Source: a virus (Duplodnaviria > Caudoviricetes). From it: a DNA stretch of 61,952 nt. The notes beneath the pieces were generated by a model that saw only the letters and a list, made by a program, of their open reading frames with translations, was not told where the DNA came from and did no database searches. The DNA is taken from IMG/VR virus record IMGVR_UViG_3300021960_000001, positions 1-61,952 of that record. One strand, given 5' to 3'. Within the stretch, counting starts at the first letter, position 1. Each line of letters opens with the position of its first letter. The translations under genes were made by a program, and so were the position numbers. Shown here one piece after another: positions 1 to 49,443 of the stretch.

Positions 1-127
1 ACATTCCCTCAATAGATACGAGTCAGTTCTTAACTGCTGGAGATATTCCTTCAATAGATACGAGTCAGTTCTTAACTGCTGGAGATATTCCTTCAATAGA
101 TACGAGTCAGTTCTTAACTGCTGGAGA
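1..127. repeat. 127-bp terminal overlap, left copy (circular assembly signature)
   Basis: Bases 1-127 are identical to 61826-61952; 127 is a common assembler k-mer size; the reading frame continues across the junction. Confidence 0.95.
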
Positions 128-168
128 TATTCCTTCAATAGATACGAGTCAGTTCTTAACTGCTGGAG
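1..168 (+). repeat. Four tandem 42-bp coding repeats (DIPSIDTSQFLTAG)
   Basis: Unit ATATTCCTTCAATAGATACGAGTCAGTTCTTAACTGCTGGAG at 43, 85 and 127; variant copy at 1; no spacers. Confidence 0.95.
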
Positions 169-1175
169 ACTTACCTTCATTTAATATAGATGATTACAGA
201 GATGATTTTCTTTCTATAGCCAGAGAGGGTGTAGATATTCCTGAGTTTGAGCAACCAGATTTATCAGGATTTGCCAGAATAGAAGACATACCTAGTTTTG
301 ATTTCGACCAAGATTTATTCAGAGACCAACTATTTGATGATATAACAGGAAGTATTAATATTCCAAAACCTCCTCCTGTGTTTGATGAAGACGCATTTAG
401 AGATAATTTATTTGAAGATATTATGGGTAATATTCCTCAACCTCCACAACCACCTCAACCACCTGCGTTCAACGAAGATGAGTTAAGAGAAAGTATCTAT
501 AATGATATTATCGGTGATTTGCCTGGATTGTTTGAAGATTTTGATTTTCCTATTCCTGGGGTTCCTGGAGACTTACCTCCTATGACTCCTCCAACAGATA
601 TTCCTGGAGGAGGTAATCCATATGAAGGTATTTTTGGTCCAGGACAAGGAATGTTTCCTCCTATAAATTTCCCTCCTGGATTTTTTGATGGTATTGGTTT
701 TCCACCAGACGATGGAGGAGGATTGCCGCCGTTTCTTCCACCAATCACCCCTCCGAACGACCCAATTACTCCACCACCTCCCGTGGACAACAAACCAACA
801 GGTCCTATAAATCCGTACACAGGTCAACCAATCAGTAATCCTTATACACCGTACTCAACAGAGAGCGGAGCAACACCATTAAGGAAAGCAATAAGTCCTA
901 GGGATTTTGGTCAAGCTCCTGGATTTGAACGTCCTATAGGAGGTCCTCCTGTTAAACCAATAGACCCACCAAGAAAAGTACCTCCTAAACCACCTTCGAT
1001 TGGAGGAATAGGTGGTGGTGGAAGAGTCTATCTAGACGATGAACTAAGATTACCGCCCCCAGAAGATATTCGCAGATTAAAAGGTGGTGGAGGTATTTCT
1101 ATGTTGCCGATGAACGGACAAGGTGATACACTAACAACACAGGTATTCCAAAGCGGATTCCGACCAAGGAGATAA
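1..1175 (+). CDS. 3' part of a ~509-aa acidic, Pro-rich protein that starts at 61471 and spans the circular junction (putative internal virion protein)
   Basis: Frame 3 is open from base 3 to the TAA at 1175, includes the 378..1175 ORF and is in frame with ATG 61471. Confidence 0.85.
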   Translation, partial: IPSIDTSQFLTAGDIPSIDTSQFLTAGDIPSIDTSQFLTAGDIPSIDTSQFLTAGDLPSFNIDDYRDDFLSIAREGVDIPEFEQPDLSGFARIEDIPSFDFDQDLFRDQLFDDITGSINIPKPPPVFDEDAFRDNLFEDIMGNIPQPPQPPQPPAFNEDELRESIYNDIIGDLPGLFEDFDFPIPGVPGDLPPMTPPTDIPGGGNPYEGIFGPGQGMFPPINFPPGFFDGIGFPPDDGGGLPPFLPPITPPNDPITPPPPVDNKPTGPINPYTGQPISNPYTPYSTESGATPLRKAISPRDFGQAPGFERPIGGPPVKPIDPPRKVPPKPPSIGGIGGGGRVYLDDELRLPPPEDIRRLKGGGGISMLPMNGQGDTLTTQVFQSGFRPRR

Positions 1176-5300: not shown

Positions 5301-6824
5301 ATGTCGTTAGCAAAAGAGTTTGCTGTACGCTATGCAGGACTACGTCAAGCGTATGGAACTTTTACAGCTAACAATGAAACTAGGGAAGATGGAAAGGCAA
5401 GTGGTAAAAACATTACTATTTCTAAAGAACTATCAGATAGTGATTTATTAAAGTTATGGGAAGACCACTTGTCTGGTCATCAAAGCGTAGGTATTGTAGC
5501 GATAGATGAACACAATAAGTGTGTCTGGGGAGCCATAGACGTTGACGAGTATCAGCTAGATTTAAAAGATTTAGCAATTAAAATAGCGAAGCAAGAATTA
5601 CCATTAGTCCTTTGCCGTAGTAAAAGTGGTGGAGCACATATTTATATCTTTTTGACCGAGCCAGTATCGGCTTCCATGCTTCAAAGAAAACTTAGACAGA
5701 TTGCAGCAGCTATCGGTTATGGTCAAGTAGAGATTTTTCCTAAACAAACAAAACTATTATTAGATAGAGGAGATAGAGGCAGTACATTAAATATGCCTTA
5801 CTTTGGTGGAGAAAACTCCACTAGATACGCTTATGATAAAAAAGGAGCAGCAATGACTCCTGAAGAATTTTTAAACTATGCTAAAGAAATAGAACTAACA
5901 CCCAATGAATTAGAAAAACTAGAAGCTAGTCCTTTAAATGAAACAATGGACTGGTTAGACCAAGCACCTCCGTGTATACAACACTTAGTAGTACAAGGCT
6001 TTCCTAAAGGCTCACGTAACTCAGGACTGTTTAATGTAGGAGTTTTCCTAAGGAAGAAGTTTCCTGATGATTGGGAACGCAGATTAGAAGATGTTAATAT
6101 AAAGTTCATGCAACCTCCATTAGGTGCACAAGAAGTATTAACCGTTGCTAAACAGCTACAAAGAAAAGACTACTTTTATAAATGTAATGACCAACCTATA
6201 GCGAGCCATTGTAATAGTCCTTTATGTAGAACTCGTAAGTTTGGTATAGGTGCCAACGGTGGCACACCTTTATTCAGTAACCTTACAAAACAGGATAGCG
6301 ACCCACCTATATGGTTTTTAGATGTTGAAGGCGGTAGACTAGAGTTAGAAACAGACGACTTGTTAAATCAAAACAGATTTCAACGTAAGTGTATGGACGC
6401 TCTTAACAAGATACCACCTAAGGTAAAAGAAAACGTCTGGAATCAGATTATACAGCAGTTATTAGACGCTATAACAATAGTAGAGGTTCCTAAAGAAAGT
6501 TCTACAGAAGGTTATTTTATGGAACTTTTAGAAGCTTTCTGTACAGAAAGACCCGCTAGAGAACGTGATGAACTGTTGTTGCATAAGCCATGGACTAATA
6601 ACGGTAAAACATATTTTAGGCTTATGGATTTAATGGATTATTTACATAGGAATAATTTCAAAGAATATCAAAGAAACAAGCTAACTTCTAAGTTAAAACA
6701 GCTTCATGGAGAGCCATACTTTTTTAACATTAAAGGCAAAGGTGTAAACGTTTGGTTTATAGAGGAGTTTAAAGCACAGGACGAGCCTCATGACTTGCCT
6801 GAATTTAACGATAATTTATTATGA
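5301..6824 (+). CDS. AEP-superfamily primase with PriCT-like domain
   Basis: WGAIDVD (DxD), RSKSGGAH (SxH), then PPCIQ..GSRNSGLF and a Cys cluster. Confidence 0.8.
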   Translation: MSLAKEFAVRYAGLRQAYGTFTANNETREDGKASGKNITISKELSDSDLLKLWEDHLSGHQSVGIVAIDEHNKCVWGAIDVDEYQLDLKDLAIKIAKQELPLVLCRSKSGGAHIYIFLTEPVSASMLQRKLRQIAAAIGYGQVEIFPKQTKLLLDRGDRGSTLNMPYFGGENSTRYAYDKKGAAMTPEEFLNYAKEIELTPNELEKLEASPLNETMDWLDQAPPCIQHLVVQGFPKGSRNSGLFNVGVFLRKKFPDDWERRLEDVNIKFMQPPLGAQEVLTVAKQLQRKDYFYKCNDQPIASHCNSPLCRTRKFGIGANGGTPLFSNLTKQDSDPPIWFLDVEGGRLELETDDLLNQNRFQRKCMDALNKIPPKVKENVWNQIIQQLLDAITIVEVPKESSTEGYFMELLEAFCTERPARERDELLLHKPWTNNGKTYFRLMDLMDYLHRNNFKEYQRNKLTSKLKQLHGEPYFFNIKGKGVNVWFIEEFKAQDEPHDLPEFNDNLL

Positions 6825-7411
6825 TAGTTTATATTAAAAAACATTTTAAAAACGCTAATCCTGGAATCGAGTACAACCAATGGGACGAGCCTAGAGAAAG
6901 AGAGTTCAATGGCTCTATGGTAAAAGGAAGAAAAACAAAAGGCTTCGGCAGTTCTTCTTTCAACTACGCAGGAAAACTTTATGAACCAACGCCATGGACT
7001 AAAGCTATGTACGATATAAAACAACAGGCGGAAAGATTGGTATGGGAAGAACTAGAAGTAGATAAACAGTTTACGTTTTGTCTATGTGGTTATTACGGTA
7101 TCGATGGCAAAGGTATACCACACCACTCGGACACAGTACCGACACTAGACGACATAGTTGTCTCTATATCTTTAGGTGCACCAAGAGTATTTGTACAAAG
7201 AACATACCAGAATGAAGTAAAGAAACACACCAATACTAGTGAAATAGAAACAAAAATAGAAAACTTTGTGATAGATGAAAAACATTACATATTAGAACAC
7301 GGAGACGTACTGATATTTGATGGTCGTAACCAAATGACTTCTACTCATGCTGTACCTAGTTTAGAGTCAGCAGGAGAAAGAATCAATTTAACTTTCAGGA
7401 GTGGTCTATGA
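6821..7411 (+). CDS. AlkB-like 2OG-Fe(II) dioxygenase
   Basis: HSD, SISLGAPRVF, LEHGDVLIF, HAVP, RINLTFR. Confidence 0.88.
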   Translation: MIVYIKKHFKNANPGIEYNQWDEPREREFNGSMVKGRKTKGFGSSSFNYAGKLYEPTPWTKAMYDIKQQAERLVWEELEVDKQFTFCLCGYYGIDGKGIPHHSDTVPTLDDIVVSISLGAPRVFVQRTYQNEVKKHTNTSEIETKIENFVIDEKHYILEHGDVLIFDGRNQMTSTHAVPSLESAGERINLTFRSGL

Positions 7412-8904
7412 CCCTACCAAGCCACACACAAGTTATTCTTGGACCACCAGGAACAGGAAAAACGAGTACGTTGCTTGGTCTTATAGAAGACGAACTACAA
7501 AACGGAACACAGCCTGAAAGCATAGGGTTTTTTACATTTACTAAAAAAGCAGTAACCGAAGGTAAACAAAGGGCTATGGCTAAGTTTAGTATAAGTGATA
7601 GAGATTTACCTTTCTTTAGAACATTACATTCTCTAGCTTTTAGACAACTAGGATTAACTAGGGAAAGTGTTGTAAGTAATACAGATATAAAAGATTTAAA
7701 TGAAAAATTAAACTTACGACTTACTGGTAGAACGACCACGGACGACGGTCATTTGTTCGGTATGACTCATGATGACCGTTTAGCCTTTATAGAAAATCTT
7801 GCTCGTATGCGTAATATACCATTAGAGCAGCAGTGGCATGAAGTAGAAGACGCAGTAGGGTGGTTTGAATTAGAAAGGTTTGCTAGAGGGCTTCAATTAT
7901 TTAAAGAGGACAGGCTGTTAGTTGATTATACAGACATGCTACATAAGTTTTTACACGAAGGAGATGTGCCATCGTTAGATGTTATGTTTGTAGATGAAGC
8001 TCAAGACTTGTCTCCTTTACAGTGGGCTGTGGTTCGCAAGGTTGCAGAAAAAGCTAAAAAGATATATGTAGCAGGAGATGATGACCAAGCTATTTATAAA
8101 TGGGCAGGTGCGGATGTTGATTATCTTATAAACAACTCTAAAAACGCAATGGTATTAAAACAATCGTACCGCGTACCATCGTCTGTTCATGAAGTAGCTA
8201 GTCGTTGTATAGGTCAAGTTCGTTCTAGAATACACAAAGAATGGACTCCTAGGAAAGATGAGGGTATTGTTCGTTGGGAGCCTACAATAGAATTAGTCAA
8301 TATGGAAAAAGGGGATTGGTTAGTATTGGCTAGAACAAATTATCTTTTAAACGAGGTCGATGAATACTGTAGAAACGAAGGATGGTTTTTTGAAGTTAAA
8401 GGCAGACCTAGTATATCAGAAGCTAAAGTACGAGCCGTGATATATTGGGAAAGGTTACGAAAAGGAGAAGCTGTTAGCTTAAATGAGTGTGCAAATATAT
8501 TAAAGTTCGTTAAGGTAGATAAACATAAAAAACTAGATATGTTAGACTCTGATTTAGTAATGCAATACGAAGACCTCAAAAGTCATTTCCCTGATTTACC
8601 TGAAGGCAACTGGTACGATGTTTTTACTCTACTGAGTCCTAGCGAAGTAAGTTATATAAGAGCCATGTTGCGTAGAGGAGAAAAAATAACCAAACAACCT
8701 AGAATACGTTTATCGACTATACATGCCGCCAAGGGAGGAGAAGCTACAAACGTTGTACTGTTAACAGATATAACAACAAGAGTATATAAAAACTATCAAC
8801 AAAACCCTGACGATGAAAATAGAGTATTCTATGTTGGAGTAACGAGAACAAAAGAAAACTTGTATCTGATAGAACCAAAATCGCCCCGCTGCTATCAGAT
8901 ATAA
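7408..8904 (+). CDS. UvrD/Rep-like SF1 helicase
   Basis: GPPGTGKT, VDEAQD, GDDDQAIY, STIHAAKGGE, FYVGVTR. Confidence 0.93.
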   Translation: MTLPSHTQVILGPPGTGKTSTLLGLIEDELQNGTQPESIGFFTFTKKAVTEGKQRAMAKFSISDRDLPFFRTLHSLAFRQLGLTRESVVSNTDIKDLNEKLNLRLTGRTTTDDGHLFGMTHDDRLAFIENLARMRNIPLEQQWHEVEDAVGWFELERFARGLQLFKEDRLLVDYTDMLHKFLHEGDVPSLDVMFVDEAQDLSPLQWAVVRKVAEKAKKIYVAGDDDQAIYKWAGADVDYLINNSKNAMVLKQSYRVPSSVHEVASRCIGQVRSRIHKEWTPRKDEGIVRWEPTIELVNMEKGDWLVLARTNYLLNEVDEYCRNEGWFFEVKGRPSISEAKVRAVIYWERLRKGEAVSLNECANILKFVKVDKHKKLDMLDSDLVMQYEDLKSHFPDLPEGNWYDVFTLLSPSEVSYIRAMLRRGEKITKQPRIRLSTIHAAKGGEATNVVLLTDITTRVYKNYQQNPDDENRVFYVGVTRTKENLYLIEPKSPRCYQI

Positions 8905-8984: not shown

Positions 8985-9467
8985 ATGAACATATTTTATT
9001 TTAGTGAAGACCCTGTGACTTCTGCTAAAGCACAACCTGACAAGATGTTAGTTAAGATGCCTTTAGAGACTGCACAGATGTTATGCACCGCTCACCGCAT
9101 ATTAGATGGAGACGACTATGCAGATGAAGTTGGCTTATATAAAAAAGCTTACATGAACCATCCTTGTACAATATGGGCTAGGGAGTGTAGTGGTAATTAT
9201 TGGTGGCTCTACAAACATTTTTTAGCGTTAGGTAATGAATATACTTACCGCTACAAGCGTACTCATGCTAGTCTTACAAAACTAGCTGATGCTTTATACG
9301 TAATGCCTAAAAACATTACTAGAGGTCTTATGACCGATGTAGCACAGGCTATGCCTGATGAATACAAAAACGAGGACTCTACTTTGGCTTATCGTAATTA
9401 CGTGATAAACGAAAAACATTACGCTAAGTGGGAGAAGGGTAGAAATAAACCAAGTTGGTGGAGGTAA
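8985..9467 (+). CDS. Pyrimidine-dimer DNA glycosylase / endonuclease V family protein
   Basis: MNIF....P..SA....DK..VKMPLETAQMLCTAH and NHPCTIW signatures. Confidence 0.78.
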   Translation: MNIFYFSEDPVTSAKAQPDKMLVKMPLETAQMLCTAHRILDGDDYADEVGLYKKAYMNHPCTIWARECSGNYWWLYKHFLALGNEYTYRYKRTHASLTKLADALYVMPKNITRGLMTDVAQAMPDEYKNEDSTLAYRNYVINEKHYAKWEKGRNKPSWWR

Positions 9468-9473
9468 AATAAA

Positions 9474-10316
9474 ATGTCATCAATAAGAAAGAAACTACTC
9501 GTCAATGAAAACGATAGTAAAAACACAAGAATGGATATTGCTAGTGCGGGTGTACTGGCTAACTGGCGACCTGATGAGATAGCTCATATGAGCCGTTTCG
9601 ATAATATAGCTTCTATGTGTATAGAAGAAGCTAAACGATTAGGCAGACCCTTAGATACGTTTGAAGTAGGTTGTGGAGAGTGTTGGACTCTTAGAAACTT
9701 ATATAAAGCTTATGTTATTAAAAAGTCTGATGTAATTAAATCATATTATGGCTACGATATAGACCCTATGTGCGAGTTAGAAAATCCTTTTTGGTCTAAC
9801 GCGGGTAATCCGTTAAAAGACTCTACATGGTTTCAAAACTTTAACGGAGAGATAAGAATACAAGACTTAACAGTAGACCCTGTATTTAAGCTAGAGGATG
9901 AAAGTATTGATTTTTTCTGGACTACCGAAGTTATTGAACATATGGGTAGAGAGTTTATCCCTGCATGGCTAGACGATGCGGCTAGGGTTATGCGACCAAA
10001 TGCATTAGCTTTTGTCTCTACGCCTAACCACGACGGTTCTAACGACAAGCTTCCTGAAGACCACGTATACGAGTGGGGTTTCCAAGAACTAAAAGAAGAA
10101 TTAGAAAGGAACTTCGAAATACTAGACGTAACAGGAACGTTTATACAACTACCTAACTTAAAGAAAGCTATGAAAGAAGATTCTAAAACAGGTTGGACTC
10201 CTGAACAATATAAGCAACTACAAAGCAGATATGGTAGACAGTTCTTAAGAGTTGTTGCAGCAACATTCTATCCTGAAGTTGCGAATAACTGTTCTTGGGT
10301 GTTAAGGAAGAAGTAA
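9474..10316 (+). CDS. Class I SAM-dependent methyltransferase
   Basis: FEVGCG motif I, GYDID, IDFFWTTEVIEH, STPN. Confidence 0.85.
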   Translation: MSSIRKKLLVNENDSKNTRMDIASAGVLANWRPDEIAHMSRFDNIASMCIEEAKRLGRPLDTFEVGCGECWTLRNLYKAYVIKKSDVIKSYYGYDIDPMCELENPFWSNAGNPLKDSTWFQNFNGEIRIQDLTVDPVFKLEDESIDFFWTTEVIEHMGREFIPAWLDDAARVMRPNALAFVSTPNHDGSNDKLPEDHVYEWGFQELKEELERNFEILDVTGTFIQLPNLKKAMKEDSKTGWTPEQYKQLQSRYGRQFLRVVAATFYPEVANNCSWVLRKK

Positions 10317-11251
10317 TGACTGAGTTTCTTGCAGAAGAACTAGACCGTTTTTGCTATTGGCAAACTGAACGTGAAAGTATTAGGGTCAAAAAAGAGGAGT
10401 ATAAACTCCCTTCCCCCTGGACTGATGACCCTATTCTGCAAGAGTTTAAATTCTGCCAAGTTTTTCGAGAAGATGATAGAACAACTAGATGGTTTAGAGC
10501 ACACATAAGAGAGCCTTTAGCCAATAGTTCTGATGTTATTATGGCTACGATTATTTTTCGTTGGTTTAATTTTATACCGACAGGTAGAACGTTAGTAGAG
10601 AATGATTTACATAGAAACTGGGAGGGTGATAAAGCTATACAGCTTATACGAAAACAACCTAAGTGGGTGACAGGCTCTTATATTATTAAAACGCCAAACG
10701 GTATGGATAAAGTAACAGGGGTAGTCGATTGTATTAATAATATCTGGAAAGATAAGGATTGGATAACTAAACGTTTAGAGTACGATAAAAAAGAAGGAAC
10801 AAGTTCTTTAAAGTCTGCATGGACATTACTTAGGCAATATCCTTATATGGGTCCATTTATGGCGTACGAGGTTGTTACTGATTTAAGGCACACTTATATA
10901 TTAGATGAAGCCGAAGATATTATGACATGGGCTAATGCAGGTCCAGGAGCCATGAGAGGACTAAATAGATTAACAGGCAGACCGCTTGATTTTTCACATC
11001 GTAGCCACGACTGGAATACAGAAATGCAAGAATTATATCAAATAGTTATACGCAGATTACCTGCACATATTGCAATGCGTAATGATAGAGTATATGAACT
11101 ACGTGATATCGAAGGAGGACTTTGTGAGTTCGATAAATATTCAAGGATATTTAAAAACGAAGGAAGAACAAGGTCTATATATAAAAGTAATAATCTTCCT
11201 GAAGTAGAAGATTTAATAGAAGGAGAAAGTAAGTATGGGAAAAGTGAATGA
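10316..11251 (+). CDS. 5-hmdU DNA kinase family protein (aGPT-Pplase clade 1)
   Basis: ERESIR..K..PWTDDPILQEFKFCQVFREDDRTT, GPFMAYEVVTDL, AGPGAMRGL, DIEGGLCEFDKY; ATG overlaps the upstream TAA. Confidence 0.85.
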   Translation: MTEFLAEELDRFCYWQTERESIRVKKEEYKLPSPWTDDPILQEFKFCQVFREDDRTTRWFRAHIREPLANSSDVIMATIIFRWFNFIPTGRTLVENDLHRNWEGDKAIQLIRKQPKWVTGSYIIKTPNGMDKVTGVVDCINNIWKDKDWITKRLEYDKKEGTSSLKSAWTLLRQYPYMGPFMAYEVVTDLRHTYILDEAEDIMTWANAGPGAMRGLNRLTGRPLDFSHRSHDWNTEMQELYQIVIRRLPAHIAMRNDRVYELRDIEGGLCEFDKYSRIFKNEGRTRSIYKSNNLPEVEDLIEGESKYGKSE

Positions 11252-11456
11252 ATATTCTCTAGACCTTTTAGAGAACTACGGAGAAGATGTTGACTGTTAT
11301 TACACACAGTTTTTAGAAGTAGCTTTCTTTTTAAAAGTTGCCGCTAGTAATGAAATGGCGATAGCGTTTATAAAAAGAAAATTACCTGTCTTAAACGAAA
11401 GCGAAATAAGTTTTCTTATAGGTGAACTAGTAGAAGCACACCAGGAAACATTATGA
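11235..11456 (+). CDS. Small hypothetical protein in the modification cluster
   Basis: RBS present; overlaps both neighbours. Confidence 0.6.
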   Translation: MGKVNEYSLDLLENYGEDVDCYYTQFLEVAFFLKVAASNEMAIAFIKRKLPVLNESEISFLIGELVEAHQETL

Positions 11457-12493
11457 AAGTAATTAGAGCAAGAAATGTAAACGACGCTCTACTTTTAGGT
11501 ATTGATTTGTTTAATGACGATACCTCTTATAGGGTGCAAGAAAGCCGCAATGGTACGACCTACGAAGCGTTAGAACCAGTAACAACTGTTTATAGTAATC
11601 CCTGTGAAAGAGTATGTTTACTAAAAGCAAGAGACGCTAATCCATTCTTTCATTATATAGAAAGTTTATGGATGTTAGCAGGACGTAAAGATTTAAAACC
11701 TTTGACCTATTTTGTTAAATCTATGGAAGATTTTTCAGATGACGGAGAAACTTTATGGGGTGCCTATGGTTGGAGATGGAAAAGTTATTTTCATAAAGAC
11801 CAAATAGATATTGTCTATAGAATGTTAAAAGAAAATCCTGAAGATAGAAGGGCAGTATTACAGATGTGGGATGCGAACAAAGACCTTAATAGAAACGGTA
11901 AAGACGTACCTTGTAATACGAACATCTATTTTAAGATTAGAGAAGATAAGTTAAATATGACTGTTTGTAATAGGTCTAATGATATGTTGTGGGGTGCTTA
12001 TGGTGCTAACGTAGTTCATATGTCAGTATTACAAGAATATCTTGCTGCTCTACTCGGTGTCGAGGTCGGAACATATAGGCAAGTTAGTGATAGCTTTCAT
12101 GTGTATCTAAATCCTGTTTGGGATAAAGTAAAAGATATCGAAATAGATGTCTACACTTATAAAGACATAATGAATCCTTACGATACATTTTCATCGGCAT
12201 ATGAACACGCTCCTTTGTTTACTAGTCCTGACACTTTAGATTGGGAATTAGATAGGTTTTTCAACATACACTACACTGACCTAGATATGAACGGTTGGGT
12301 AAATCCAGCACTCAAAGATATTGCTGTTCCTATGACGTTAGCGTTTAATTCATATAAAGACGGAGATTTTAAATTAGCGTATGAACATATAGAAAATATA
12401 AAAGCCATTGATTGGAAAACGGCTTGTCTCGGTTGGGTCCGCAAAAGAGACAAGACTATTATTAATAACGCGGACGAAGGAGAAAACTTATGA
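11453..12493 (+). CDS. Thymidylate synthase-fold enzyme, probable dUMP hydroxymethylase
   Basis: DANPFFH, GAYGWRW, DVPCN (catalytic Cys), RSNDMLWGAYGAN (Asn at the dUMP-specificity position), SFHVY; adjacent to the 5-hmdU kinase. Confidence 0.82.
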   Translation: MKVIRARNVNDALLLGIDLFNDDTSYRVQESRNGTTYEALEPVTTVYSNPCERVCLLKARDANPFFHYIESLWMLAGRKDLKPLTYFVKSMEDFSDDGETLWGAYGWRWKSYFHKDQIDIVYRMLKENPEDRRAVLQMWDANKDLNRNGKDVPCNTNIYFKIREDKLNMTVCNRSNDMLWGAYGANVVHMSVLQEYLAALLGVEVGTYRQVSDSFHVYLNPVWDKVKDIEIDVYTYKDIMNPYDTFSSAYEHAPLFTSPDTLDWELDRFFNIHYTDLDMNGWVNPALKDIAVPMTLAFNSYKDGDFKLAYEHIENIKAIDWKTACLGWVRKRDKTIINNADEGENL

Positions 12494-12846
12494 GTAAGTG
12501 GGAAAATATGAAAGAGGTAGCCCAAAACGATTTAGAAGCTCTAAAACGGGCAGAGACTTCGTACGGTGACTCTTGGAGACGTCGCGGAGGTGTAGGTGCC
12601 TTTATGATGTTGGCACGTAAGTTCGATAGGATAGAACATCAGTCGCAAAAGCACGGATGGGATGTCTTCGAAGCAGGTGAGGTCTATAAAGGCGAAGCAG
12701 GTCTACTAGACGACATCAGAGACTTGCGTAGGTATCTTCTATTAGTAGAGGAATATATATTAACAAATACAGATACAGGTTCTGATGTAGAAGAAGCTGA
12801 AGATGTAAATTACTCTGTCGAAGAAGATAGAGAAGGAGACTATTAA
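12490..12846 (+). CDS. Nucleotide-modification-associated all-alpha NTP pyrophosphatase-like protein (Nmad1/DUF1599-like)
   Basis: SYGDSW...RKFDRI...DDIRDLRRYLLL; directly follows the TS-fold gene. Confidence 0.6.
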   Translation: MSKWENMKEVAQNDLEALKRAETSYGDSWRRRGGVGAFMMLARKFDRIEHQSQKHGWDVFEAGEVYKGEAGLLDDIRDLRRYLLLVEEYILTNTDTGSDVEEAEDVNYSVEEDREGDY

Positions 12847-12847
12847 T

Positions 12848-13174
12848 ATGGGATTTTGGTCAAAATTTGTAACATTTTTTACTCCGCCACCTGTTGTAAA
12901 AGTGGATGAAGTAAAGAAAGCTAAAGTTATTAAAGAAGCTGTAAAAGAAGCTACGGTAGAATTAGATAAGTTTGAAAAGCCTATTAAATCAGCACCTAAA
13001 CGTGCTAGAACTAAAAAAGGTACATACATAGCTGATGATAAATCTACTCCAGACGTAAACGAAGCTTGGGTTGGTGGTAAAGCACCTAAAAAGAAAACAT
13101 CTGTAGCTAAGAAAAAGATAGCTAAAGCAAAAGCAGGTAAAGTTAAAATCACTACCAATAATATAGGCGAGTAA
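12848..13174 (+). CDS. Lys-rich hypothetical protein
   Basis: RARTKKGTYIADDKSTPDVNEAW motif; AAGGAG RBS. Confidence 0.7.
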   Translation: MGFWSKFVTFFTPPPVVKVDEVKKAKVIKEAVKEATVELDKFEKPIKSAPKRARTKKGTYIADDKSTPDVNEAWVGGKAPKKKTSVAKKKIAKAKAGKVKITTNNIGE

Positions 13175-15042
13175 TGATTTTACAGCATACCTTGTTTGAA
13201 CCTAAAAGTTCTTGGACTACCCCAGACGTGTTTCCTCAGTTTTCTGAGACAGAAACTATTGCGGTAGACTTAGAAACTTATGACCCTCATTTAACGACTT
13301 GCGGTCCAGGATGGGCTACAGGTCGTGGTCATGTCGTAGGCATAGGGATAGCAACAAACAACTGGCAAGGTTATTTTCCTATCCGTCACGAGGGTGGTGG
13401 TAATCTTGACGAAGGTATGGTATTGCGTTGGTTAACGAACACACTCAGCTCTACAAAAAGAGATGTTATATTTCATAACGCACTCTACGATGTGGGTTGG
13501 TTAAGAAGAGAAGGAATTATTGTAAAAGGTAGAATACTCGATACAATAGTTGCTGCTCCTCTTATCAATGAAAACAGATATTCTTATTCACTCGATAATC
13601 TTGGCAGTTTTTACTGCGATGAAAAGAAAGACGAGTCTTTATTACAAGACGCAGCTTTGGCTTACGGGGTCAATCCTAAGTCAGAGATGTATAAACTTCA
13701 CGCTAAATATGTTGGACCTTATGGCGAACAAGACGCTGCTTTAACATTGAAGCTTTGGAATAAACTTAAAATAGAGATAGACGAGCAAGGGTTGCAAAAA
13801 ATATTAGACATGGAGTCTAAACTAATCCCTCTACTATTAGAAATGCGATGGAGAGGAGTTAGGGTAGATGAAGAAAAGGCTGAACAGGTAAGTAAGAAAC
13901 TTTCTACCGAAGAACAAAAGATACAGGTAGAAATAAAAAGGAAGTACGGCAGTGATGTAAATCTATGGGCTAATGCTTCTCTACAAAACATATTCGAAAA
14001 GAACAAGATATGGTTTCCGAGAACAGCAAAAGGCATGGCTAGTTTTCAAAAAGACTGGTTAGAAGGACATGAACATGAACTTCCTCAATTAATTGTTAGG
14101 GCTAGAAAGTTAAATAAAGCGAGAACTACCTTTATCGATAAGATGATTATGGAACACGCTTTTAACGGTAGAATACATGCAGAAGCTCATCCTATGCGTA
14201 ACGACCGTGGTGGGACTGTCAGCGGCAGGTTTAGTTATAGTAATCCTAACCTACAACAAGTTCCTGCACGTGACCCTGAAATAGGTAATCTGATACGTTC
14301 GTTGTTTATTCCAGAAGAGGGTTGTCAGTGGGGTGTATTCGATTATTCTCAACAAGAACCAAGACTTACTGTTCACTATGCTAATCAGATGAACTTAAAC
14401 GGTGCTGAAAAAGCAGTCTCTCAATATAGAGACGATAACGCAGACTTCCACCAAATAGTTGCAGACATGGCTAATATACCACGTAAACAAGCTAAGACGA
14501 TTAATCTAGGATTAAGTTACGGAATGGGTAAAGAAAAACTGATTAACGAATTAGGTATCGATGATACAGAAGCAGAGAAACTGTTTCAACAGTATCATGC
14601 TAACGTTCCTTTTATTCGTGCTCTACAAGACCAATGTGCAAGAGTAGCGATGGAACGCGGATATATAAAAACATTTGCAGGTAGGCATTGTCGTTTCAAT
14701 CTGTGGGAAAGCAGATACGAAAGGACTCTACCTTTGCCTCTAGACGAGGCTAAAGAAAAATACGGCGACGACCTCAAAAGGTCATACACTTATAAAGCCC
14801 TTAACAGACTAATACAAGGCTCAGCTGCTGACATGACTAAGTTAGCAATGATAGGTCTTTGGGAGGAAGGAATAGTTCCTCACCTACAGGTTCACGATGA
14901 AGTTGATATTTCAGTAGAGAACACAGAACAAGCGAACACGATAACAAGAATAATGGAGAATTGTGTTGAACTTGCTGTTCCCCTACTAGTAGACCAGGAA
15001 TTAGGTATGTCATGGGGCGAAACAAAGGAAATAAAAAGATGA
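13174..15042 (+). CDS. polA: Family A DNA polymerase with 3'-5' exonuclease
   Basis: DLET, HNALYD, DYSQQEPR (motif A), KTINLGLSYG (motif B), QVHDE (motif C). Confidence 0.96.
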   Translation: MILQHTLFEPKSSWTTPDVFPQFSETETIAVDLETYDPHLTTCGPGWATGRGHVVGIGIATNNWQGYFPIRHEGGGNLDEGMVLRWLTNTLSSTKRDVIFHNALYDVGWLRREGIIVKGRILDTIVAAPLINENRYSYSLDNLGSFYCDEKKDESLLQDAALAYGVNPKSEMYKLHAKYVGPYGEQDAALTLKLWNKLKIEIDEQGLQKILDMESKLIPLLLEMRWRGVRVDEEKAEQVSKKLSTEEQKIQVEIKRKYGSDVNLWANASLQNIFEKNKIWFPRTAKGMASFQKDWLEGHEHELPQLIVRARKLNKARTTFIDKMIMEHAFNGRIHAEAHPMRNDRGGTVSGRFSYSNPNLQQVPARDPEIGNLIRSLFIPEEGCQWGVFDYSQQEPRLTVHYANQMNLNGAEKAVSQYRDDNADFHQIVADMANIPRKQAKTINLGLSYGMGKEKLINELGIDDTEAEKLFQQYHANVPFIRALQDQCARVAMERGYIKTFAGRHCRFNLWESRYERTLPLPLDEAKEKYGDDLKRSYTYKALNRLIQGSAADMTKLAMIGLWEEGIVPHLQVHDEVDISVENTEQANTITRIMENCVELAVPLLVDQELGMSWGETKEIKR

Positions 15043-20847: not shown

Positions 20848-21261
20848 ATGGCAACAGAAAAAACTATCTGGTATCAACAAAACCATATAAGTCACGGACG
20901 AGCAACGTCTAAACTACCATTTAGACGAGGTGCTGGAGGACGTTGGGGTTCTATCAGCAGGGTTGAGGAATGGGCAGAACAACGCGGACTTATAGATGAG
21001 AACGGTCCTCTACCATTACCTGATAAACAAATGATAAAATTTTTAGAAGAAGTAGGCGAAACTGCTAGAGCTCTACTTTACGACGATATGGATGAACTCC
21101 GCGATGGTATTGGGGACTGCGTAGTATGTTTGATAGTATTAGCAGCACAATGTAATATGACTCTAGAAGAGTGTATGGACGCCGCATGGGACGAAATAAA
21201 AGACCGTAGTGGTAAACTCGAAAATGGCTTGTTCAAAAAGGATGGCGACTTCGATAGCTAG
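20848..21261 (+). CDS. MazG-like NTP pyrophosphohydrolase
   Basis: KFLEEVGE...DGIGDCVVCL...AWDEIKDRSGK. Confidence 0.82.
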   Translation: MATEKTIWYQQNHISHGRATSKLPFRRGAGGRWGSISRVEEWAEQRGLIDENGPLPLPDKQMIKFLEEVGETARALLYDDMDELRDGIGDCVVCLIVLAAQCNMTLEECMDAAWDEIKDRSGKLENGLFKKDGDFDS

Positions 21262-31178: not shown

Positions 31179-31376
31179 ATGGATTATATCTTAGCTACGG
31201 AGCATTTGCTCCGTAAATATCGTGAGAGAAAAGAAGCTCTTACGCAGACATTAGCTTCTGGAAGTATTGAAGACTTTAATCAATACCAAAGGATAGTTGG
31301 TGAAATAGCAGGTTTGAATTTCGCCGAACAGGAGATTCAAACTTTACATTCTAATATGGAGGATGCAAATGACTAA
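31179..31376 (+). CDS. Small conserved head-module protein
   Basis: DFNQYQRIVGEIAGL; located between portal and GroES. Confidence 0.65.
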   Translation: MDYILATEHLLRKYRERKEALTQTLASGSIEDFNQYQRIVGEIAGLNFAEQEIQTLHSNMEDAND

Positions 31377-31821
31377 TAAAGTCGAAACAAAAACTGTTCC
31401 AAATAGAGTATTAAGAGAATTCGGAAGTGATAAGGCTCCTGTTGCAGAAGCACCAGATGAAGTTATTACTCCTGAAAACTTAGAAGCTCATGCGGAATCG
31501 CTACCACGTCCAACGGGGTATCGTATTTTAATATTACCTTTTACACAATCAACAGTGACTAAAGGCGGCATACATTTAGCTAAATCAACGGTAGACAAGG
31601 AAAGACTTGCGACTGTTGTAGGTTATGTTGTTGCCATGGGAGCTGATGCTTATAGTGACTTACATAAGTTTCCTGAAGGACCTTGGTGTAAAGAAGGTGA
31701 TTGGGTAATCTTCGGTAGATACGCAGGTGCTCGTTTTCAAATAGAAGGTGGCGACATGCGTCTTTTAAATGATGACGAAATCTTAGCTACTATAGATGAC
31801 CCAGAAGCAATTTTATCATAA
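31369..31821 (+). CDS. groES: Co-chaperonin GroES-like protein
   Basis: PTGYRILI...TKGGIHL...GYVVAMG...GDWVIFGRYAG...RLLNDDEILA. Confidence 0.88.
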   Translation: MTNKVETKTVPNRVLREFGSDKAPVAEAPDEVITPENLEAHAESLPRPTGYRILILPFTQSTVTKGGIHLAKSTVDKERLATVVGYVVAMGADAYSDLHKFPEGPWCKEGDWVIFGRYAGARFQIEGGDMRLLNDDEILATIDDPEAILS

Positions 31822-47241: not shown

Positions 47242-47625
47242 ATGGCTAAAAAAGCACCAGATGCATTTGTATATAATGCTACACTAGAAAGAATAGTGGA
47301 CGGAGACACTTTCGATTGCTGTCTTGATTTAGGTTTTGATGTAAAACTACATAAACAAAGAGTACGTTTAAGTGGTATCGATACTCCTGAGTCTAGGACT
47401 AGAGATTTAGCAGAAAAGAAACTAGGACTTGCTGCTAAAGAAAGATTAAAAGAACTTTGTGCGGGTAAGTTAAAAGTAAAATCTCTAGGTAAAGGCAAGT
47501 ATGGGAGAATATTAGGCATACCATACACAGAAGACGGTAAAGATATTTGTGAGATTTTAATTAAAGAAGGACATGCAGTTGAGTATCACGGAGGTACTAA
47601 AGTTAAAATCTGGGGAGATTATTAA
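47242..47625 (+). CDS. SNase-like (thermonuclease) nuclease
   Basis: VDGDT, RVRLSGIDTPE, GKYGRILG. Confidence 0.88.
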   Translation: MAKKAPDAFVYNATLERIVDGDTFDCCLDLGFDVKLHKQRVRLSGIDTPESRTRDLAEKKLGLAAKERLKELCAGKLKVKSLGKGKYGRILGIPYTEDGKDICEILIKEGHAVEYHGGTKVKIWGDY

Positions 47626-49439: not shown

Positions 49440-49443
49440 AATT

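What the first reader, a model, noticed from the sequence alone, without database searches (positions are those of the whole stretch)
9474..12846. Thymidine hypermodification cluster with a SAM methyltransferase in place of the usual amino-acid transferase
Seen: coupled genes for a methyltransferase, a 5-hmdU DNA kinase-family protein, a 73-aa ORF, a TS-fold enzyme with the dUMP-type Asn, and an Nmad1-like pyrophosphatase, shortly before polA. Known: in M6, ViI and PhiW-14 type phages, 5-hmdU is incorporated into DNA, phosphorylated by the aGPT-Pplase1 kinase, then substituted by an aGPT-Pplase2 amino-acid/amine transferase and often tailored by PLP or radical SAM enzymes. I recognised no clade-2 transferase, PLP or radical SAM gene in this apparently complete genome. 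Inference: the end product may be a different base, for example a methyl ester of 5-phosphomethyl-dU or 5-methoxymethyl-dU. I also saw no dNMP kinase or dCMP deaminase, so precursor supply may rely on the host or on unannotated ORFs.
Basis: partly seen in the sequence, partly recalled or inferred. Interest (0 to 1): 0.85.

Follow-up and report, generated by a model that had tools for sequence, protein, structure and literature searches.

The report
Kinase-less hydroxymethyluracil cassette with Hen1-like methyltransferase
An abundant marine phage carries a tightly packed gene set that probably replaces thymine with hydroxymethyluracil and then methylates it with a Hen1-like enzyme, which would give a DNA base nobody has described.

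Summary
The genes are real and tightly coupled. They lie in a complete 61,952-bp genome of an HTVC023P-type pelagiphage. The 318-aa protein is not a kinase. It is a clade-1 aGPT-Pplase (Pfam HMUDK_hel) with a helix-hairpin-helix glycosylase fold and no P-loop.

The genome lacks the P-loop 5-hmdU DNA kinase, the amino-acid:DNA transferase (ADDT, clade 2), clade 3, TAGT, and PLP or radical-SAM enzymes. Five further complete relatives also lack the kinase and ADDT.

The methyltransferase keeps the Hen1 metal ligands (E-x-x-E-H plus a later His). Its family profile hits Hen1/HENMT1 first among solved structures. It directly precedes the Pplase1 gene in 80 of 80 related contigs.

Distant members of this family lie within about 2.5 kb of a pyrimidine hydroxymethylase in 9 of 10 other contexts. 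Some of those hydroxymethylases are Asn-type (dUMP) and some Asp-type (dCMP). One context is the cultured Stenotrophomonas phage AXL3, whose DNA resists 35 of 37 restriction enzymes.

Best reading: O-methylation of the 5-hydroxymethyl group, giving 5-methoxymethyl-dU here. There is no chemical evidence. I found no description in the held literature. The scan noted the same cassette on other genomes.

The parts
9474..10316 (+). Hen1-like class I SAM methyltransferase (280 aa). Predicted metal ligands are E152, E155, H156 and H197. Motif I is EVGCGE.
   Evidence: Pfam Methyltransf_23 at 2e-8. The family profile hits Hen1/HENMT1/CthHen1 first in the PDB, at 2e-9 to 3e-8, with shared EVIEH, STPN and DHxxEW blocks. 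The ligand identities come from PMC10781085. These residues are invariant in 18 close sequences. E152, E155 and H156 are invariant in 8 distant sequences. AlphaFold model pLDDT is 76.6, a Rossmann MTase fold. Present in 80 of 80 related loci.
10316..11251 (+). Clade-1 aGPT-Pplase (Pfam HMUDK_hel), a helix-hairpin-helix glycosylase-fold protein of 311 aa from ATG 10316. A TTG at 10295 would give 318 aa. It has an invariant E-G-G-L-C-E-F-D-K-Y block. It is not a kinase.
   Evidence: PF18723 at 1e-40 over residues 16-289. 43% identical to PaMx11 gp50 and PhiJL001 gp19. Model pLDDT 81. VIA-align: MjOgg Z 11.1 (rmsd 3.5, 186 aligned) and PaMx11 gp46/PUGT Z 8.6 (rmsd 4.6, 220 aligned). The top Foldseek rows are PUGT. 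hhalign against a clade-2 alignment gives E 2.8e-4, probability 41%, and puts its Cys on the ADDT catalytic Cys. Relatives start at MTEF..., which favours ATG 10316.
11235..11456 (+). 73-aa ORF of unknown function, overlapping both neighbours.
   Evidence: No Pfam or PHROG hit. Found by tblastn in 47 of 80 related loci.
11453..12493 (+). Thymidylate-synthase-fold enzyme, read as a dUMP 5-hydroxymethylase. It has the catalytic Cys in KDVPCN and an Asn in RSNDMLWGAYGAN.
   Evidence: phrog_5131 at 2e-113 and Pfam TS at 8.5e-23. The best PDB hit is CMP hydroxymethylase MilA (1e-20), ahead of thymidylate synthases (1e-12). 42-45% identical to PaMx11 gp51 and PhiJL001 gp24. The Asn-type motif is present in 78 of 80 related loci; the other 2 are cut by contig ends.
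12490..12846 (+). 118-aa conserved protein (SYGDSWRRRGGVGAFMMLARKFDR block) of unresolved function. It may be a distant DUF1599-like protein.
   Evidence: No Pfam hit and no PDB hit with the family profile. A protein-atlas neighbour cluster carries DUF1599 on 11% of members, score 0.97. Present in 77 of 80 related loci.
12848..13174 (+). 108-aa Lys-rich ORF between the cassette and polA.
   Evidence: No family hit. Present in 56 of 80 related loci.
13174..15042 (+). Family A DNA polymerase directly downstream. It is expected to incorporate the modified dNTP.
   Evidence: 40% identical to PaMx11 gp55 over its full length. Present in 77 of 80 related loci.
20848..21261 (+). MazG-like nucleotide pyrophosphohydrolase. 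It is a candidate for clearing the dTTP/dUTP pool (inference).
   Evidence: Pfam MazG at 6.6e-5.

Best explanation
The cassette is a kinase-less, transferase-less variant of the phage thymidine-modification pathway.

- **Step 1 (inferred from homology).** The TS-fold enzyme hydroxymethylates dUMP. After phosphorylation by host kinases, the phage PolA puts 5-hmdU into DNA in place of T.
- **Step 2 (inferred from the Hen1-type active site and from gene context in many lineages).** The Hen1-like, metal-dependent SAM methyltransferase O-methylates the 5-hydroxymethyl group. The product would be 5-methoxymethyl-2'-deoxyuridine.
- **Level of action.** I favour action on DNA. The translationally coupled clade-1 aGPT-Pplase, a glycosylase-fold protein, would bind the DNA and present the flipped base. 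Methylation of the nucleotide (5-hmdUMP) before replication is not excluded.
- **Purpose (inferred).** The modified base would protect the DNA from host nucleases.

The same MT family appears to do the equivalent job on 5-hydroxymethylcytosine in other phages, such as Stenotrophomonas phage AXL3.
For: **The genome is complete and lacks the canonical enzymes.**
- It is a complete record.
- There is no PF18748 kinase and no ADDT.
- There is no clade 3 and no TAGT.
- tblastn with PaMx11 gp46, gp47, gp48, gp49, gp52 and gp56 found nothing.
- The only Walker A motif in a plausible P-loop protein is in UvrD.
- None of the 68 ORFs scanned matches a PLP, rSAM, FAD or acetyltransferase family.
- Five of 5 further 100%-complete relatives lack both PF18748 and PF18724. 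The kinase search rang in two positive controls and weakly in PaMx11.

**The MT is Hen1-like.**
- The family profile's five best PDB hits are Hen1 proteins, at 2e-9 to 3e-8.
- They align through EVIEH, STPN and DHxxEW.
- The HEN1 metal ligands are Glu796, Glu799, His800 and His860 (passages of PMC10781085). They correspond to E152, E155, H156 and H197.
- These four are invariant in 18 close sequences. The first three are invariant in 8 distant ones.

**Gene linkage.**
- The MT is followed at once by Pplase1 in 80 of 80 related loci. In 73 of 80 the gap is 30 nt or less.
- The TS-like gene is present in 78 of 80 loci.

**Context of distant MT homologues (26-41% identity).** Nine of 10 contexts have a pyrimidine hydroxymethylase within about 2.5 kb. 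L087 is the exception.
- L086: Pplase1-TS-ADDT-MT-phosphatase-kinase.
- L089: ADDT-kinase-MT-P-loop-HMase.
- L088, L090 and L091: MT-TMPK-like-HMase.
- AXL3, MW202510 and MW202621: MT-NTP-PPase-(kinase)-HMase-dCMP deaminase.
- PW916, taken from the gene table of PMC9414467.

**The shared feature is the 5-CH2OH group.**
- These hydroxymethylases are Asn-type in the window clade and L086.
- They are Asp-type in L088-L091, AXL3 and MW202510.

**Partner enzymes vary around a common core.** Related phages pair Pplase1 and the TS-like enzyme with a different hydroxyl-modifying partner.
- PaMx11 and RHph_I65 have a kinase.
- PhiJL001 has a TET-associated glycosyltransferase.

**A cultured member has modified DNA.** AXL3 DNA resisted 35 of 37 restriction enzymes (passages of PMC7504290).
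Against: - No chemistry has been measured, and nothing shows that the MT touches a nucleobase.
- Known Hen1 enzymes methylate a ribose 2'-OH whose vicinal 3'-OH also binds the metal. A 5-hydroxymethyl group has no vicinal hydroxyl.
- By structure the MT model is not closer to Hen1 than to dozens of small-molecule MTases. Z values are flat at 16-17, and Hen1 is not among the 50 rows shown.
- In L086 and L089 the MT coexists with a kinase and ADDT. There it could tailor an appended group instead.
- In L088, L090, L091 and the AXL3 type, the neighbours are all nucleotide-level enzymes and no Pplase1 was found nearby. This favours a nucleotide substrate over DNA.
- Pplase1 was dispensable for M6 reconstitution in vitro (PMC8989533), so its role as a presenter is a guess.
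- The AXL3 restriction pattern could be explained by 5-hmC alone.
- One MT homologue (L087) has no hydroxymethylase within its 10.8-kb locus.
- Whether the TS-fold enzyme hydroxymethylates or methylates cannot be read from sequence.
Confidence: 0.45

Rival explanations
1. Pplase1 is itself an active group transferase, and the MT tailors what it installs. Pplase1 would attack C6 of 5-hmdU in DNA with its conserved Cys and attach an unknown nucleophile without prior phosphorylation. The MT would then methylate a hydroxyl or carboxyl of that appended group.
For: - Pplase1 keeps the E-x-x-L-C block that aligns with the catalytic Cys and metal-binding Glu of ADDT. Their catalytic roles are described in PMC8989533 and PMC13458397.
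- This block is invariant in 17 clade members.
- In L086 and L089 the MT lies beside an ADDT, as a tailoring enzyme would.
Against: - Both characterised transferases needed the kinase, and there is none here.
- The hhalign probability is only 41%.
- MT homologues in L088, L090 and L091 have no Pplase hit in the records searched. In the AXL3, MW202510 and MW202621 contexts no Pplase is annotated nearby. These records were either incomplete or not searched for this family.
- M6 gp55 added nothing in vitro.
Confidence: 0.15
2. The MT is a true Hen1-type RNA 3'-end 2'-O-methyltransferase. It might, for example, protect or repair tRNA cut by host nucleases. It would merely be parked in the nucleotide-metabolism module, and the DNA would carry plain 5-hmdU.
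For: - Its nearest solved relatives by sequence are all RNA 2'-O-methyltransferases with the same metal ligands.
- In L086 it lies next to a phosphatase and a P-loop kinase, an arrangement that recalls Pnkp-Hen1.
Against: - The stop and start codons overlap with Pplase1 in the window. The two genes are adjacent in 80 of 80 loci.
- It is adjacent to hydroxymethylases of two specificities in 9 of 10 unrelated contexts.
- The L086 kinase scores above the cut-off on the 5-hmdU DNA kinase model.
- There is no ligase or Pnkp among the 68 ORFs scanned.
- The protein has only the MT domain. The extra domains of plant and bacterial Hen1 are recalled, not tested here.
Confidence: 0.12
3. The cassette is ordinary nucleotide metabolism. 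The TS-fold enzyme makes dTMP, Pplase1 is a repair glycosylase, and the MT is unrelated to either.
For: - The Pfam and NCBIfam names are 'thymidylate synthase'.
- Pplase1 has a DNA glycosylase fold.
- The phage DNA is assembled near-identically in many Illumina runs. Fourteen runs hold at least half of the sampled words.
Against: - All NCBIfam TS equivalog scores are far below their cut-offs, for example 95 against 174 and 68 against 327.
- The best solved relative is a hydroxymethylase.
- The nearest phage homologues are the TS-like genes of PaMx11, which is known to be hypermodified, and of PhiJL001.
- PF18723 is confined to such clusters in what I examined. One protein fuses Pplase1 to the TS-like enzyme.
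Confidence: 0.05

Closest known systems
Thymidine hypermodification clusters of Pseudomonas phages M6 and PaMx11 (Lee et al. 2018, PMC5889632; 2021, PMC8989533; passages read)
   Same: - Same gene order of Pplase1, TS-like enzyme, small genes and PolA.
- 40-43% identity for these three proteins.
- Same premise that 5-hmdU is the precursor.
   Different: - No P-loop 5-hmdU DNA kinase, no ADDT, and no PLP, rSAM, FAD or acetyltransferase enzymes.
- A Hen1-like MT occupies the slot upstream of Pplase1, where PaMx11 has its kinase.
- 'Methyltransferase' occurs in those papers' main texts only in the general discussion (4 occurrences, none describing the gene clusters, in PMC8989533) or not at all (PMC5889632).
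TS plus aG/PT-PPlase1 'partner AMGs' of HTVC023P-type pelagiphages (PMC9599517; passages read)
   Same: This is the same phage group and the same two genes near PolA. The same curli/T8SS operon and 2OG-Fe(II) oxygenases are present.
   Different: - That paper's main text has 0 occurrences of 'methyltransferase'. I could not see its supplements.
- In the passages I read it likens the system to the M6 system and does not mention the missing kinase and transferase.
Hen1 / HENMT1 small-RNA 3'-terminal 2'-O-methyltransferases (PDB 3htx, 4xcx, 3jwg, 4xrp)
   Same: Class I MTase with the E-x-x-E-H plus His metal site and the STPN and DHxxEW blocks.
   Different: - Single-domain 280-aa phage protein.
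- Its genomic partners are hydroxymethylpyrimidine enzymes, not Pnkp.
- The proposed acceptor is a base hydroxymethyl group rather than a ribose 2'-OH.
Glycosylating hydroxymethylpyrimidine phages: T4-type (recalled) and PhiJL001 with TAGT
   Same: A hydroxymethylase makes the handle, and a dedicated enzyme then caps the hydroxyl. PhiJL001 shares the Pplase1 and TS-like core.
   Different: The cap would be a methyl group from SAM instead of a sugar. No TAGT is present here.
Stenotrophomonas phage AXL3 and Pseudoxanthomonas phage PW916 nucleotide module (PMC7504290, PMC9414467; passages read)
   Same: They carry a member of the same MT family: 27% identity, with the E-x-x-E-H, STP and Glu invariants kept. 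It sits in one operon with a pyrimidine hydroxymethylase.
   Different: - Their hydroxymethylase is Asp-type, predicted to be cytosine-specific.
- The operon also holds an NTP-PPase, a TMPK-like kinase and a dCMP deaminase.
- No Pplase1 is annotated nearby.

Membership tests
M6/PaMx11/ViI-type thymidine hypermodification pathway | dUMP hydroxymethylase homologue | tested here: met
   phrog_5131 at 2e-113. 42% identical to PaMx11 gp51. Cys and Asn are present.
M6/PaMx11/ViI-type thymidine hypermodification pathway | P-loop 5-hmdU DNA kinase (PF18748, M6 gp54 type) | tested here: not met
   The six-frame PF18748 search found nothing at E<=10. tblastn with PaMx11 gp49 gave a best E of 1.5. There is no spare Walker A protein. 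Caveat: PF18748 scores the proven PaMx11 kinase at only 17 bits.
M6/PaMx11/ViI-type thymidine hypermodification pathway | Clade-2 aGPT-Pplase / amino acid:DNA transferase (PF18724) | tested here: not met
   No match at E<=1. tblastn with PaMx11 gp46 found nothing.
M6/PaMx11/ViI-type thymidine hypermodification pathway | Tailoring enzyme of a described class (PLP, radical SAM, flavin, acetyltransferase) | tested here: not met
   None among the 68 ORFs scanned with Pfam.
M6/PaMx11/ViI-type thymidine hypermodification pathway | Non-canonical thymidine derivative in virion DNA | not testable with these tools
   This needs nucleoside LC-MS.
aGPT-Pplase clade 1 (PF18723 HMUDK_hel) | Full-length match to the family model above its cut-off | tested here: met
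   140 bits against a cut-off of 25, covering profile positions 4-278 of 281.
aGPT-Pplase clade 1 (PF18723 HMUDK_hel) | Helix-hairpin-helix DNA glycosylase-like fold | tested here: met
   VIA-align: MjOgg Z 11.1 (rmsd 3.5, 186 aligned) and PUGT Z 8.6 (rmsd 4.6, 220 aligned). Z values in this range can occur by chance for helical proteins, but the list is almost entirely HhH glycosylases.
Amino acid:DNA transferase mechanism (works like) | Catalytic Cys with a nearby acidic residue | tested here: inconclusive
   The E-G-G-L-C block aligns with E-V-E-T-x-L-C of clade 2, but hhalign gives only E 2.8e-4 and probability 41%.
Hen1 family O-methyltransferases | Class I SAM-MTase fold with motif I | tested here: met
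Hen1 family O-methyltransferases | Metal site of Glu-x-x-Glu-His after beta4 and a His after beta5 | tested here: met
   E152, E155, H156 and H197 align with the HENMT1 and CthHen1 ligands. The ligand list comes from PMC10781085. These residues are invariant in the clade.
Hen1 family O-methyltransferases | Closer to Hen1 than to other MTases | tested here: inconclusive
   By sequence profile, yes: the top five PDB hits are Hen1 proteins. By structure, no discrimination.
Hen1 family O-methyltransferases | Substrate is the 3'-terminal ribose of RNA, with a Pnkp partner or RNA-binding domains | not testable with these tools
   No Pnkp or ligase was seen among the 68 ORFs. The extra domains of Hen1 are recalled, not tested.
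Thymidylate synthase / pyrimidine hydroxymethylase superfamily | Hydroxymethylase rather than methylase chemistry | tested here: inconclusive
   MilA scores 1e-20 against 1e-12 for thymidylate synthases. NCBIfam TS scores are far below their cut-offs. No diagnostic residue was available to me.
DUF1599 / 'Nmad1' (name recalled) | Match of the 118-aa ORF to the family model | tested here: inconclusive
   No Pfam hit. The only lead is an atlas neighbour cluster with DUF1599 on 11% of members.

The most novel reading that the evidence does not exclude
Hen1-like methyltransferases would be a third general way, beside glycosylation and phosphorylation with aminoacyl transfer, by which phages cap 5-hydroxymethylpyrimidines.

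- They would give two undescribed natural DNA bases: 5-methoxymethyluracil in abundant SAR11-type marine phages, and 5-methoxymethylcytosine in AXL3-type phages.
- The long-unexplained clade-1 aGPT-Pplase would be the shared base-presenting module. Interchangeable kinase, sugar-transferase or methyltransferase partners would dock onto it.
Probability: 0.3. Interest if true: 0.88.

Novelty: new variant of a known kind. Interest (0 to 1): 0.78.

Why it matters
If the prediction holds, one of the most abundant phage groups in the surface ocean writes its genome with a base that is not in any catalogue. The enzyme that makes it would be a re-purposed RNA-end methyltransferase.

It would add ether formation to the known chemistry of DNA hypermodification. 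It would also give the clade-1 aGPT-Pplase a testable role.

Such a base would matter for sequencing bias in marine viromes and for restriction evasion. It would also offer a small, SAM-driven tool for labelling 5-hm pyrimidines.

The link to the cultured phage AXL3 makes the idea testable now with a simple nucleoside LC-MS run.

Tried and rejected
**Searches and comparisons that gave nothing useful**
- A DNA search of the cassette against 50,697 phage records found no match.
- phmmer of Pplase1 against PDB sequences gave 0 hits at E<=10.
- phmmer of the single MT sequence against the PDB gave only 0.1-level hits.
- I guessed that PF18725 was clade 3. It is HEPN_SAV2148, so that search was wasted.
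- The metagenome scan with the distant-MT alignment used only the generic motif-I pattern. It returned 67 ordinary methyltransferases at 23-31% identity and nothing informative.
- Structure searches of the MT model gave flat Z values of 16-17 over many small-molecule MTases. Structure therefore neither supports nor rejects Hen1 kinship.
- The o118 profile against the PDB gave only a chance hit at E 1.3.

**Searches for fusions**
- A search for longer proteins containing the MT found none. The tool itself calls this weak evidence.
- For Pplase1 the same search found two. One is a fusion to the TS-like enzyme.
- P0204, a longer MT relative, carries a LAGLIDADG endonuclease-like part, not a Hen1 N-domain.

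**Complex prediction of MT with Pplase1**
- The verdict was 'no answer', with scores of 0.00 and 0.00 and no controls run. I treat this as no evidence either way.

**Public sequencing runs**
- Four marine RNA-library runs from three studies hold short contigs over the cassette at 90-100% identity. Three of them are 100% identical pieces in the MT, Pplase1 and TS genes of run X17.
- These are assembled contigs from libraries that may contain DNA, so I do not count them as proof of transcription.
- No raw long reads were available to look for a modification signal.

**Ideas considered and rejected**
- A hidden kinase in the minus-strand ORF 497-823, which has two Walker-like strings. It is the low-complexity antisense of a Pro-rich repeat protein.
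- The G-E-S-K-Y-G-K-S string at the C-terminal tail of Pplase1 as a P-loop. It lies in the last 10 residues, in a region with pLDDT below 50.

**Papers**
- Iyer et al. 2013 (PMC3763556) is not held. What I say about its predictions comes from how PMC8989533 and PMC5889632 cite it.
The gene tables and figures of PMC9599517 and PMC8989533 may mention the methyltransferase.
- Searches that found no description: 5-methoxymethyl-uracil, -uridine and -dU terms gave 12 papers, none on DNA bases. Methoxymethyl-cytosine and -uracil terms gave 0 papers. Hen1 + bacteriophage + hydroxymethyl + DNA modification gave 3 reviews, none relevant. Pplase1, HMUDK_hel and PF18723 gave 5 papers.

Full report
**What is there**

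The window is a whole virus record of 61,952 bp with direct terminal repeats and 100% estimated completeness. The repeat is 127 bp, and one gene runs across the ends.

On the + strand lie, in order:
- a UvrD-type helicase (7408-8904)
- a DenV/Pyr_excise-like protein (8985-9467)
- a 280-aa methyltransferase (9474-10316)
- a 311/318-aa protein (10316 or 10295 to 11251)
- a 73-aa ORF (11235-11456)
- a 346-aa thymidylate-synthase-fold protein (11453-12493)
- a 118-aa ORF (12490-12846)
- a 108-aa ORF (12848-13174)
- a family A DNA polymerase (13174-15042)

Every junction from 9467 to 13174 is either an overlap of 1 to 17 nt or a gap of 1 to 6 nt. The MT stop and the next start share TAATG, behind an AGGAAGAAG stretch. 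So the observation of coupled genes holds.

**What the 318-aa protein is**

It matches only Pfam PF18723, now named 'HMUDK_hel', over its whole length (1e-40).

In the papers I read, the 5-hmdU DNA kinase is a separate P-loop protein: M6 gp54, PaMx11 gp49, or ViI gp67 and gp243. The transferase is the clade-2 aGPT-Pplase: M6 gp51, PaMx11 gp46, or ViI gp247 (PMC8989533 Table 1 and text; PMC5889632).

The window protein is 43% identical to PaMx11 gp50, the gene after the kinase. It is also related to proteins annotated 'aGPT-Pplase clade 1' in M6-like phages. M6 gp55, which by its position after the kinase gp54 is probably the M6 clade-1 gene (my inference), was not needed for in-vitro reconstitution.

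A model built from 17 clade sequences (pLDDT 81) resembles helix-hairpin-helix DNA glycosylases:
- MjOgg, Z 11.1, rmsd 3.5, 186 aligned
- the solved PaMx11 gp46 transferase, Z 8.6, rmsd 4.6, 220 aligned

The gp46 transferase also fills Foldseek's top three rows, though weakly (E 0.4-0.7).

A profile comparison with four clade-2 sequences gives E 2.8e-4 and probability 41%. It places the invariant Cys of the E-G-G-L-C-E-F-D-K-Y block on the catalytic Cys of the transferases. The protein is therefore a glycosylase-fold relative of the transferase. It may be catalytically competent, and it is certainly not a kinase.

**What is missing**

Six-frame family searches of the genome found none of the following:
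- the 5-hmdU DNA kinase (PF18748)
- the amino acid:DNA transferase (PF18724)
- clade 3 (PF18746)
- the TET-associated glycosyltransferase (PF20691)

Other checks agree:
- tblastn with PaMx11 gp46, gp47, gp48, gp49, gp52, gp53 and gp56, and with the PhiJL001 neighbours, hit only Pplase1, the TS-like gene and PolA.
- Walker A strings occur in UvrD and in four places that are not P-loop proteins.
- Pfam scans of 68 window ORFs show no PLP, radical SAM, flavin, acetyltransferase, nucleotide kinase or deaminase family.
- Five of 5 other complete genomes of the clade also lack PF18748 and PF18724.

The kinase search did ring in two positive controls. It scored the proven PaMx11 kinase only weakly (17 bits). 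That is why the tblastn and Walker A checks matter.

**The TS-fold enzyme**

- It has the catalytic Cys.
- It has an Asn at the site where the CMP hydroxymethylase MilA has Asp.
- Its best solved relative is MilA (1e-20), ahead of thymidylate synthases (1e-12).
- All NCBIfam TS equivalog scores are far below their cut-offs.
- It is 42-45% identical to the TS-like genes of PaMx11 and PhiJL001.

I read it as a dUMP hydroxymethylase. This rests on homology, not on a diagnostic residue.

**The methyltransferase**

Single-sequence searches say only 'class I methyltransferase'. Structure searches cannot tell it from many small-molecule enzymes.

A note from earlier work in this scan called it Hen1-like, and I tested that. 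A profile of 21 diverse family members hits Hen1 proteins first among all PDB sequences:
- 4xrp, 2e-9
- human HENMT1 4xcx and 5wy0, about 1e-8
- Clostridium thermocellum Hen1 3jwg and 3jwi, about 3e-8
- Arabidopsis HEN1 3htx, 6e-5

The alignments run through EVIEH, STPN and DHxxEW. In HEN1 the metal is held by Glu796, Glu799, His800 and His860. In human HENMT1 these are E132, E135, H136 and H181, lying after beta4 and beta5 (PMC10781085). They correspond to E152, E155, H156 and H197 of the window protein. All four are invariant in 18 clade sequences. E152, E155 and H156 are invariant in 8 members that share only 26-41% identity. Hen1 enzymes methylate a hydroxyl held at a metal, so an O-methyltransferase is the natural reading.

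**Context in relatives**

- The MT is found in 118 IMG/VR stretches by the first scan. The 80 kept show 63-100% identity.
- In 80 of 80, Pplase1 follows directly, and in 73 the gap is 30 nt or less.
- The Asn-type TS-like gene follows in 78 of 80; the other two are cut by contig ends.
- o118 is present in 77 of 80 and PolA in 77 of 80.

These are one phage clade, so this shows conservation, not independent association. The clade is the HTVC023P type of SAR11 phages. The same TS plus aG/PT-PPlase1 pair, the curli CsgF/CsgG-FecR-cyclase operon and the 2OG oxygenases are described in PMC9599517. Its main text never mentions a methyltransferase.

**Context in distant lineages: the decisive evidence**

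A search of 1.8 billion representatives found 119 proteins at E<=1e-10. Further scans gave loci with MT homologues of 26-41% identity. Their gene orders are:
- L086: Pplase1, TS-like, ADDT, MT, a dual-specificity-phosphatase-like protein, and a 5-hmdU DNA kinase
- L089: ADDT, kinase, MT, another P-loop protein and a hydroxymethylase, with a Pplase1 elsewhere in the complete 49-kb genome
- L088, L090 and L091: MT, a thymidylate-kinase-like P-loop protein and a hydroxymethylase
- Cultured Stenotrophomonas phage AXL3 and the uncultured MW202510 and MW202621: MT, NTP pyrophosphatase, (kinase), pyrimidine hydroxymethylase and dCMP deaminase
- PW916: the same, by its published gene table
- L087: no hydroxymethylase within 10.8 kb

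That makes 9 of 10 contexts with a hydroxymethylase nearby.

The hydroxymethylases are of two kinds. The window clade, PaMx11, PhiJL001, RHph_I65 and L086 have Asn. L088-L091, AXL3 and MW202510 have Asp, as does MilA. What these contexts share is therefore neither thymine, nor Pplase1, nor a kinase. It is a 5-hydroxymethyl group on a pyrimidine.

AXL3 DNA resisted 35 of 37 restriction enzymes. It was cut only by AATT and TTAA cutters (PMC7504290). This fits a modified cytosine.

In the nearest named relatives of the cassette, the partner of Pplase1 and the TS-like enzyme is either a kinase (PaMx11, RHph_I65) or a TET-associated glycosyltransferase (PhiJL001, which also lacks PF18748). Each of these enzymes modifies a hydroxyl.

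**Mechanism proposed**

- **Shown:** gene content, the absences, the motifs and the linkage.
- **Inferred:** dUMP is hydroxymethylated, and 5-hmdU enters the DNA. The Hen1-like enzyme then transfers a methyl group from SAM to the 5-CH2OH oxygen, giving 5-methoxymethyl-dU.
- **Level of action:** Coupling to a DNA-glycosylase-fold protein favours action on DNA in this clade. The purely nucleotide-level neighbours in the AXL3 type favour action on the nucleotide. I cannot decide between them.
- **Rivals:** Pplase1 acts as a kinase-independent transferase whose product the MT tailors. Or the MT is a true RNA-end methyltransferase. Or the cassette is ordinary dTMP synthesis.

**Novelty**

The TS plus Pplase1 pair in these pelagiphages is in print. 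I did not find any of the following in the held library:
- the methyltransferase partner
- the absence of the kinase and transferase
- the Hen1 kinship
- the association with both hmU-type and hmC-type pathways
- the predicted bases

Supplements were closed, and Iyer et al. 2013 is not held.

The scan itself has met the same cassette on at least seven other genomes. Three earlier follow-ups reached a similar 'kinase-less hmU methylation, Hen1-like' reading.
- the test of the Hen1 metal site
- the alignment of the Pplase1 Cys with the ADDT catalytic Cys
- the Asn/Asp split
- the link to the cultured, restriction-resistant phage AXL3

**Verdict**

This is a new variant of a known kind of system, with a concrete and cheap decisive experiment.

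Noticed in passing
window 48170-52938: Curli-type secretion operon in a phage: CsgF (5e-16), CsgG (5e-46), an Asn/Gly-rich 243-aa protein, a FecR-domain protein and a CHASE2-adenylate cyclase. It matches the T8SS partner genes described for HTVC023P-type pelagiphages in PMC9599517.
   Followed up: partly
window 6821-7411: AlkB-like 2OG-Fe(II) oxygenase (3.7e-20) between the primase and the helicase. It is present in 58 of 80 related loci. A demethylase-type enzime in a genome with an unusual methyltransferase may be worth a look.
   Followed up: no
window 8985-9467: DenV/Pyr_excise-like N-terminal domain (2.5e-8; phrog_624 at 4e-56) directly upstream of the MT with a 6-nt gap. It is present in 43 of 80 related loci, so it is not a fixed part of the cassette.
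   Followed up: partly
L086:6747-7181: In a distant hypermodification cluster, a dual-specificity-phosphatase-like protein lies between the Hen1-like MT and the 5-hmdU DNA kinase. It could remove unused phosphate from 5-phosphomethyl-dU.
   Followed up: no
P0274 (625 aa): Natural fusion of a clade-1 aGPT-Pplase (N-terminal) to a TS-like hydroxymethylase (C-terminal). This is a Rosetta-stone link between a glycosylase-fold protein and a nucleotide-level enzyme. It is odd if Pplase1 acts only on DNA.
   Followed up: partly
L089 (complete 49-kb record; loci L089, L213, L215): One genome combines an Asp-type (cytosine-like) hydroxymethylase with ADDT, a 5-hmdU-DNA-kinase homologue (1e-24), Pplase1 and the MT. 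Either it has a second uracil-type enzyme, or the kinase and transferase chemistry can work on 5-hmC.
   Followed up: no
W01 = NC_028770.1, 39220-39627: The experimentally proven PaMx11 kinase gp49 scores only 17 bits (E 9e-5) on Pfam PF18748, below the cut-off of 27. Absence of this Pfam family alone is therefore weak evidence for absence of the kinase.
   Followed up: yes
window 3-1175 and 61471-61950: A gene runs across the record ends. It starts with four exact DIPSIDTSQFLTAG repeats and is very Pro/Gly-rich. Its antisense strand gives a false ORF with Walker-like strings.
   Followed up: partly
P0204 (447 aa): An MT-family member with a LAGLIDADG homing-endonuclease-like part of about 130 residues ahead of the MT domain (1e-10 to I-OnuI-type enzymes). 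This suggests mobile-element invasion of the gene.
   Followed up: no
L085 (Microbacterium phage Golden) 1951-2823 and 4944-5750: Small actinophages carry a distant Pplase1 homologue (26% identity) and an Asp-type TS-like enzyme about 2 kb apart, with no annotated kinase. This may be another uncharacterised hydroxymethylpyrimidine system.
   Followed up: no
window 31363-31821, 47242-47625 and 20848-21261: A GroES-like Cpn10 (4.5e-11), a staphylococcal-nuclease-like protein (1.6e-14) and a MazG-like pyrophosphatase (6.6e-5) are also encoded.
   Followed up: no
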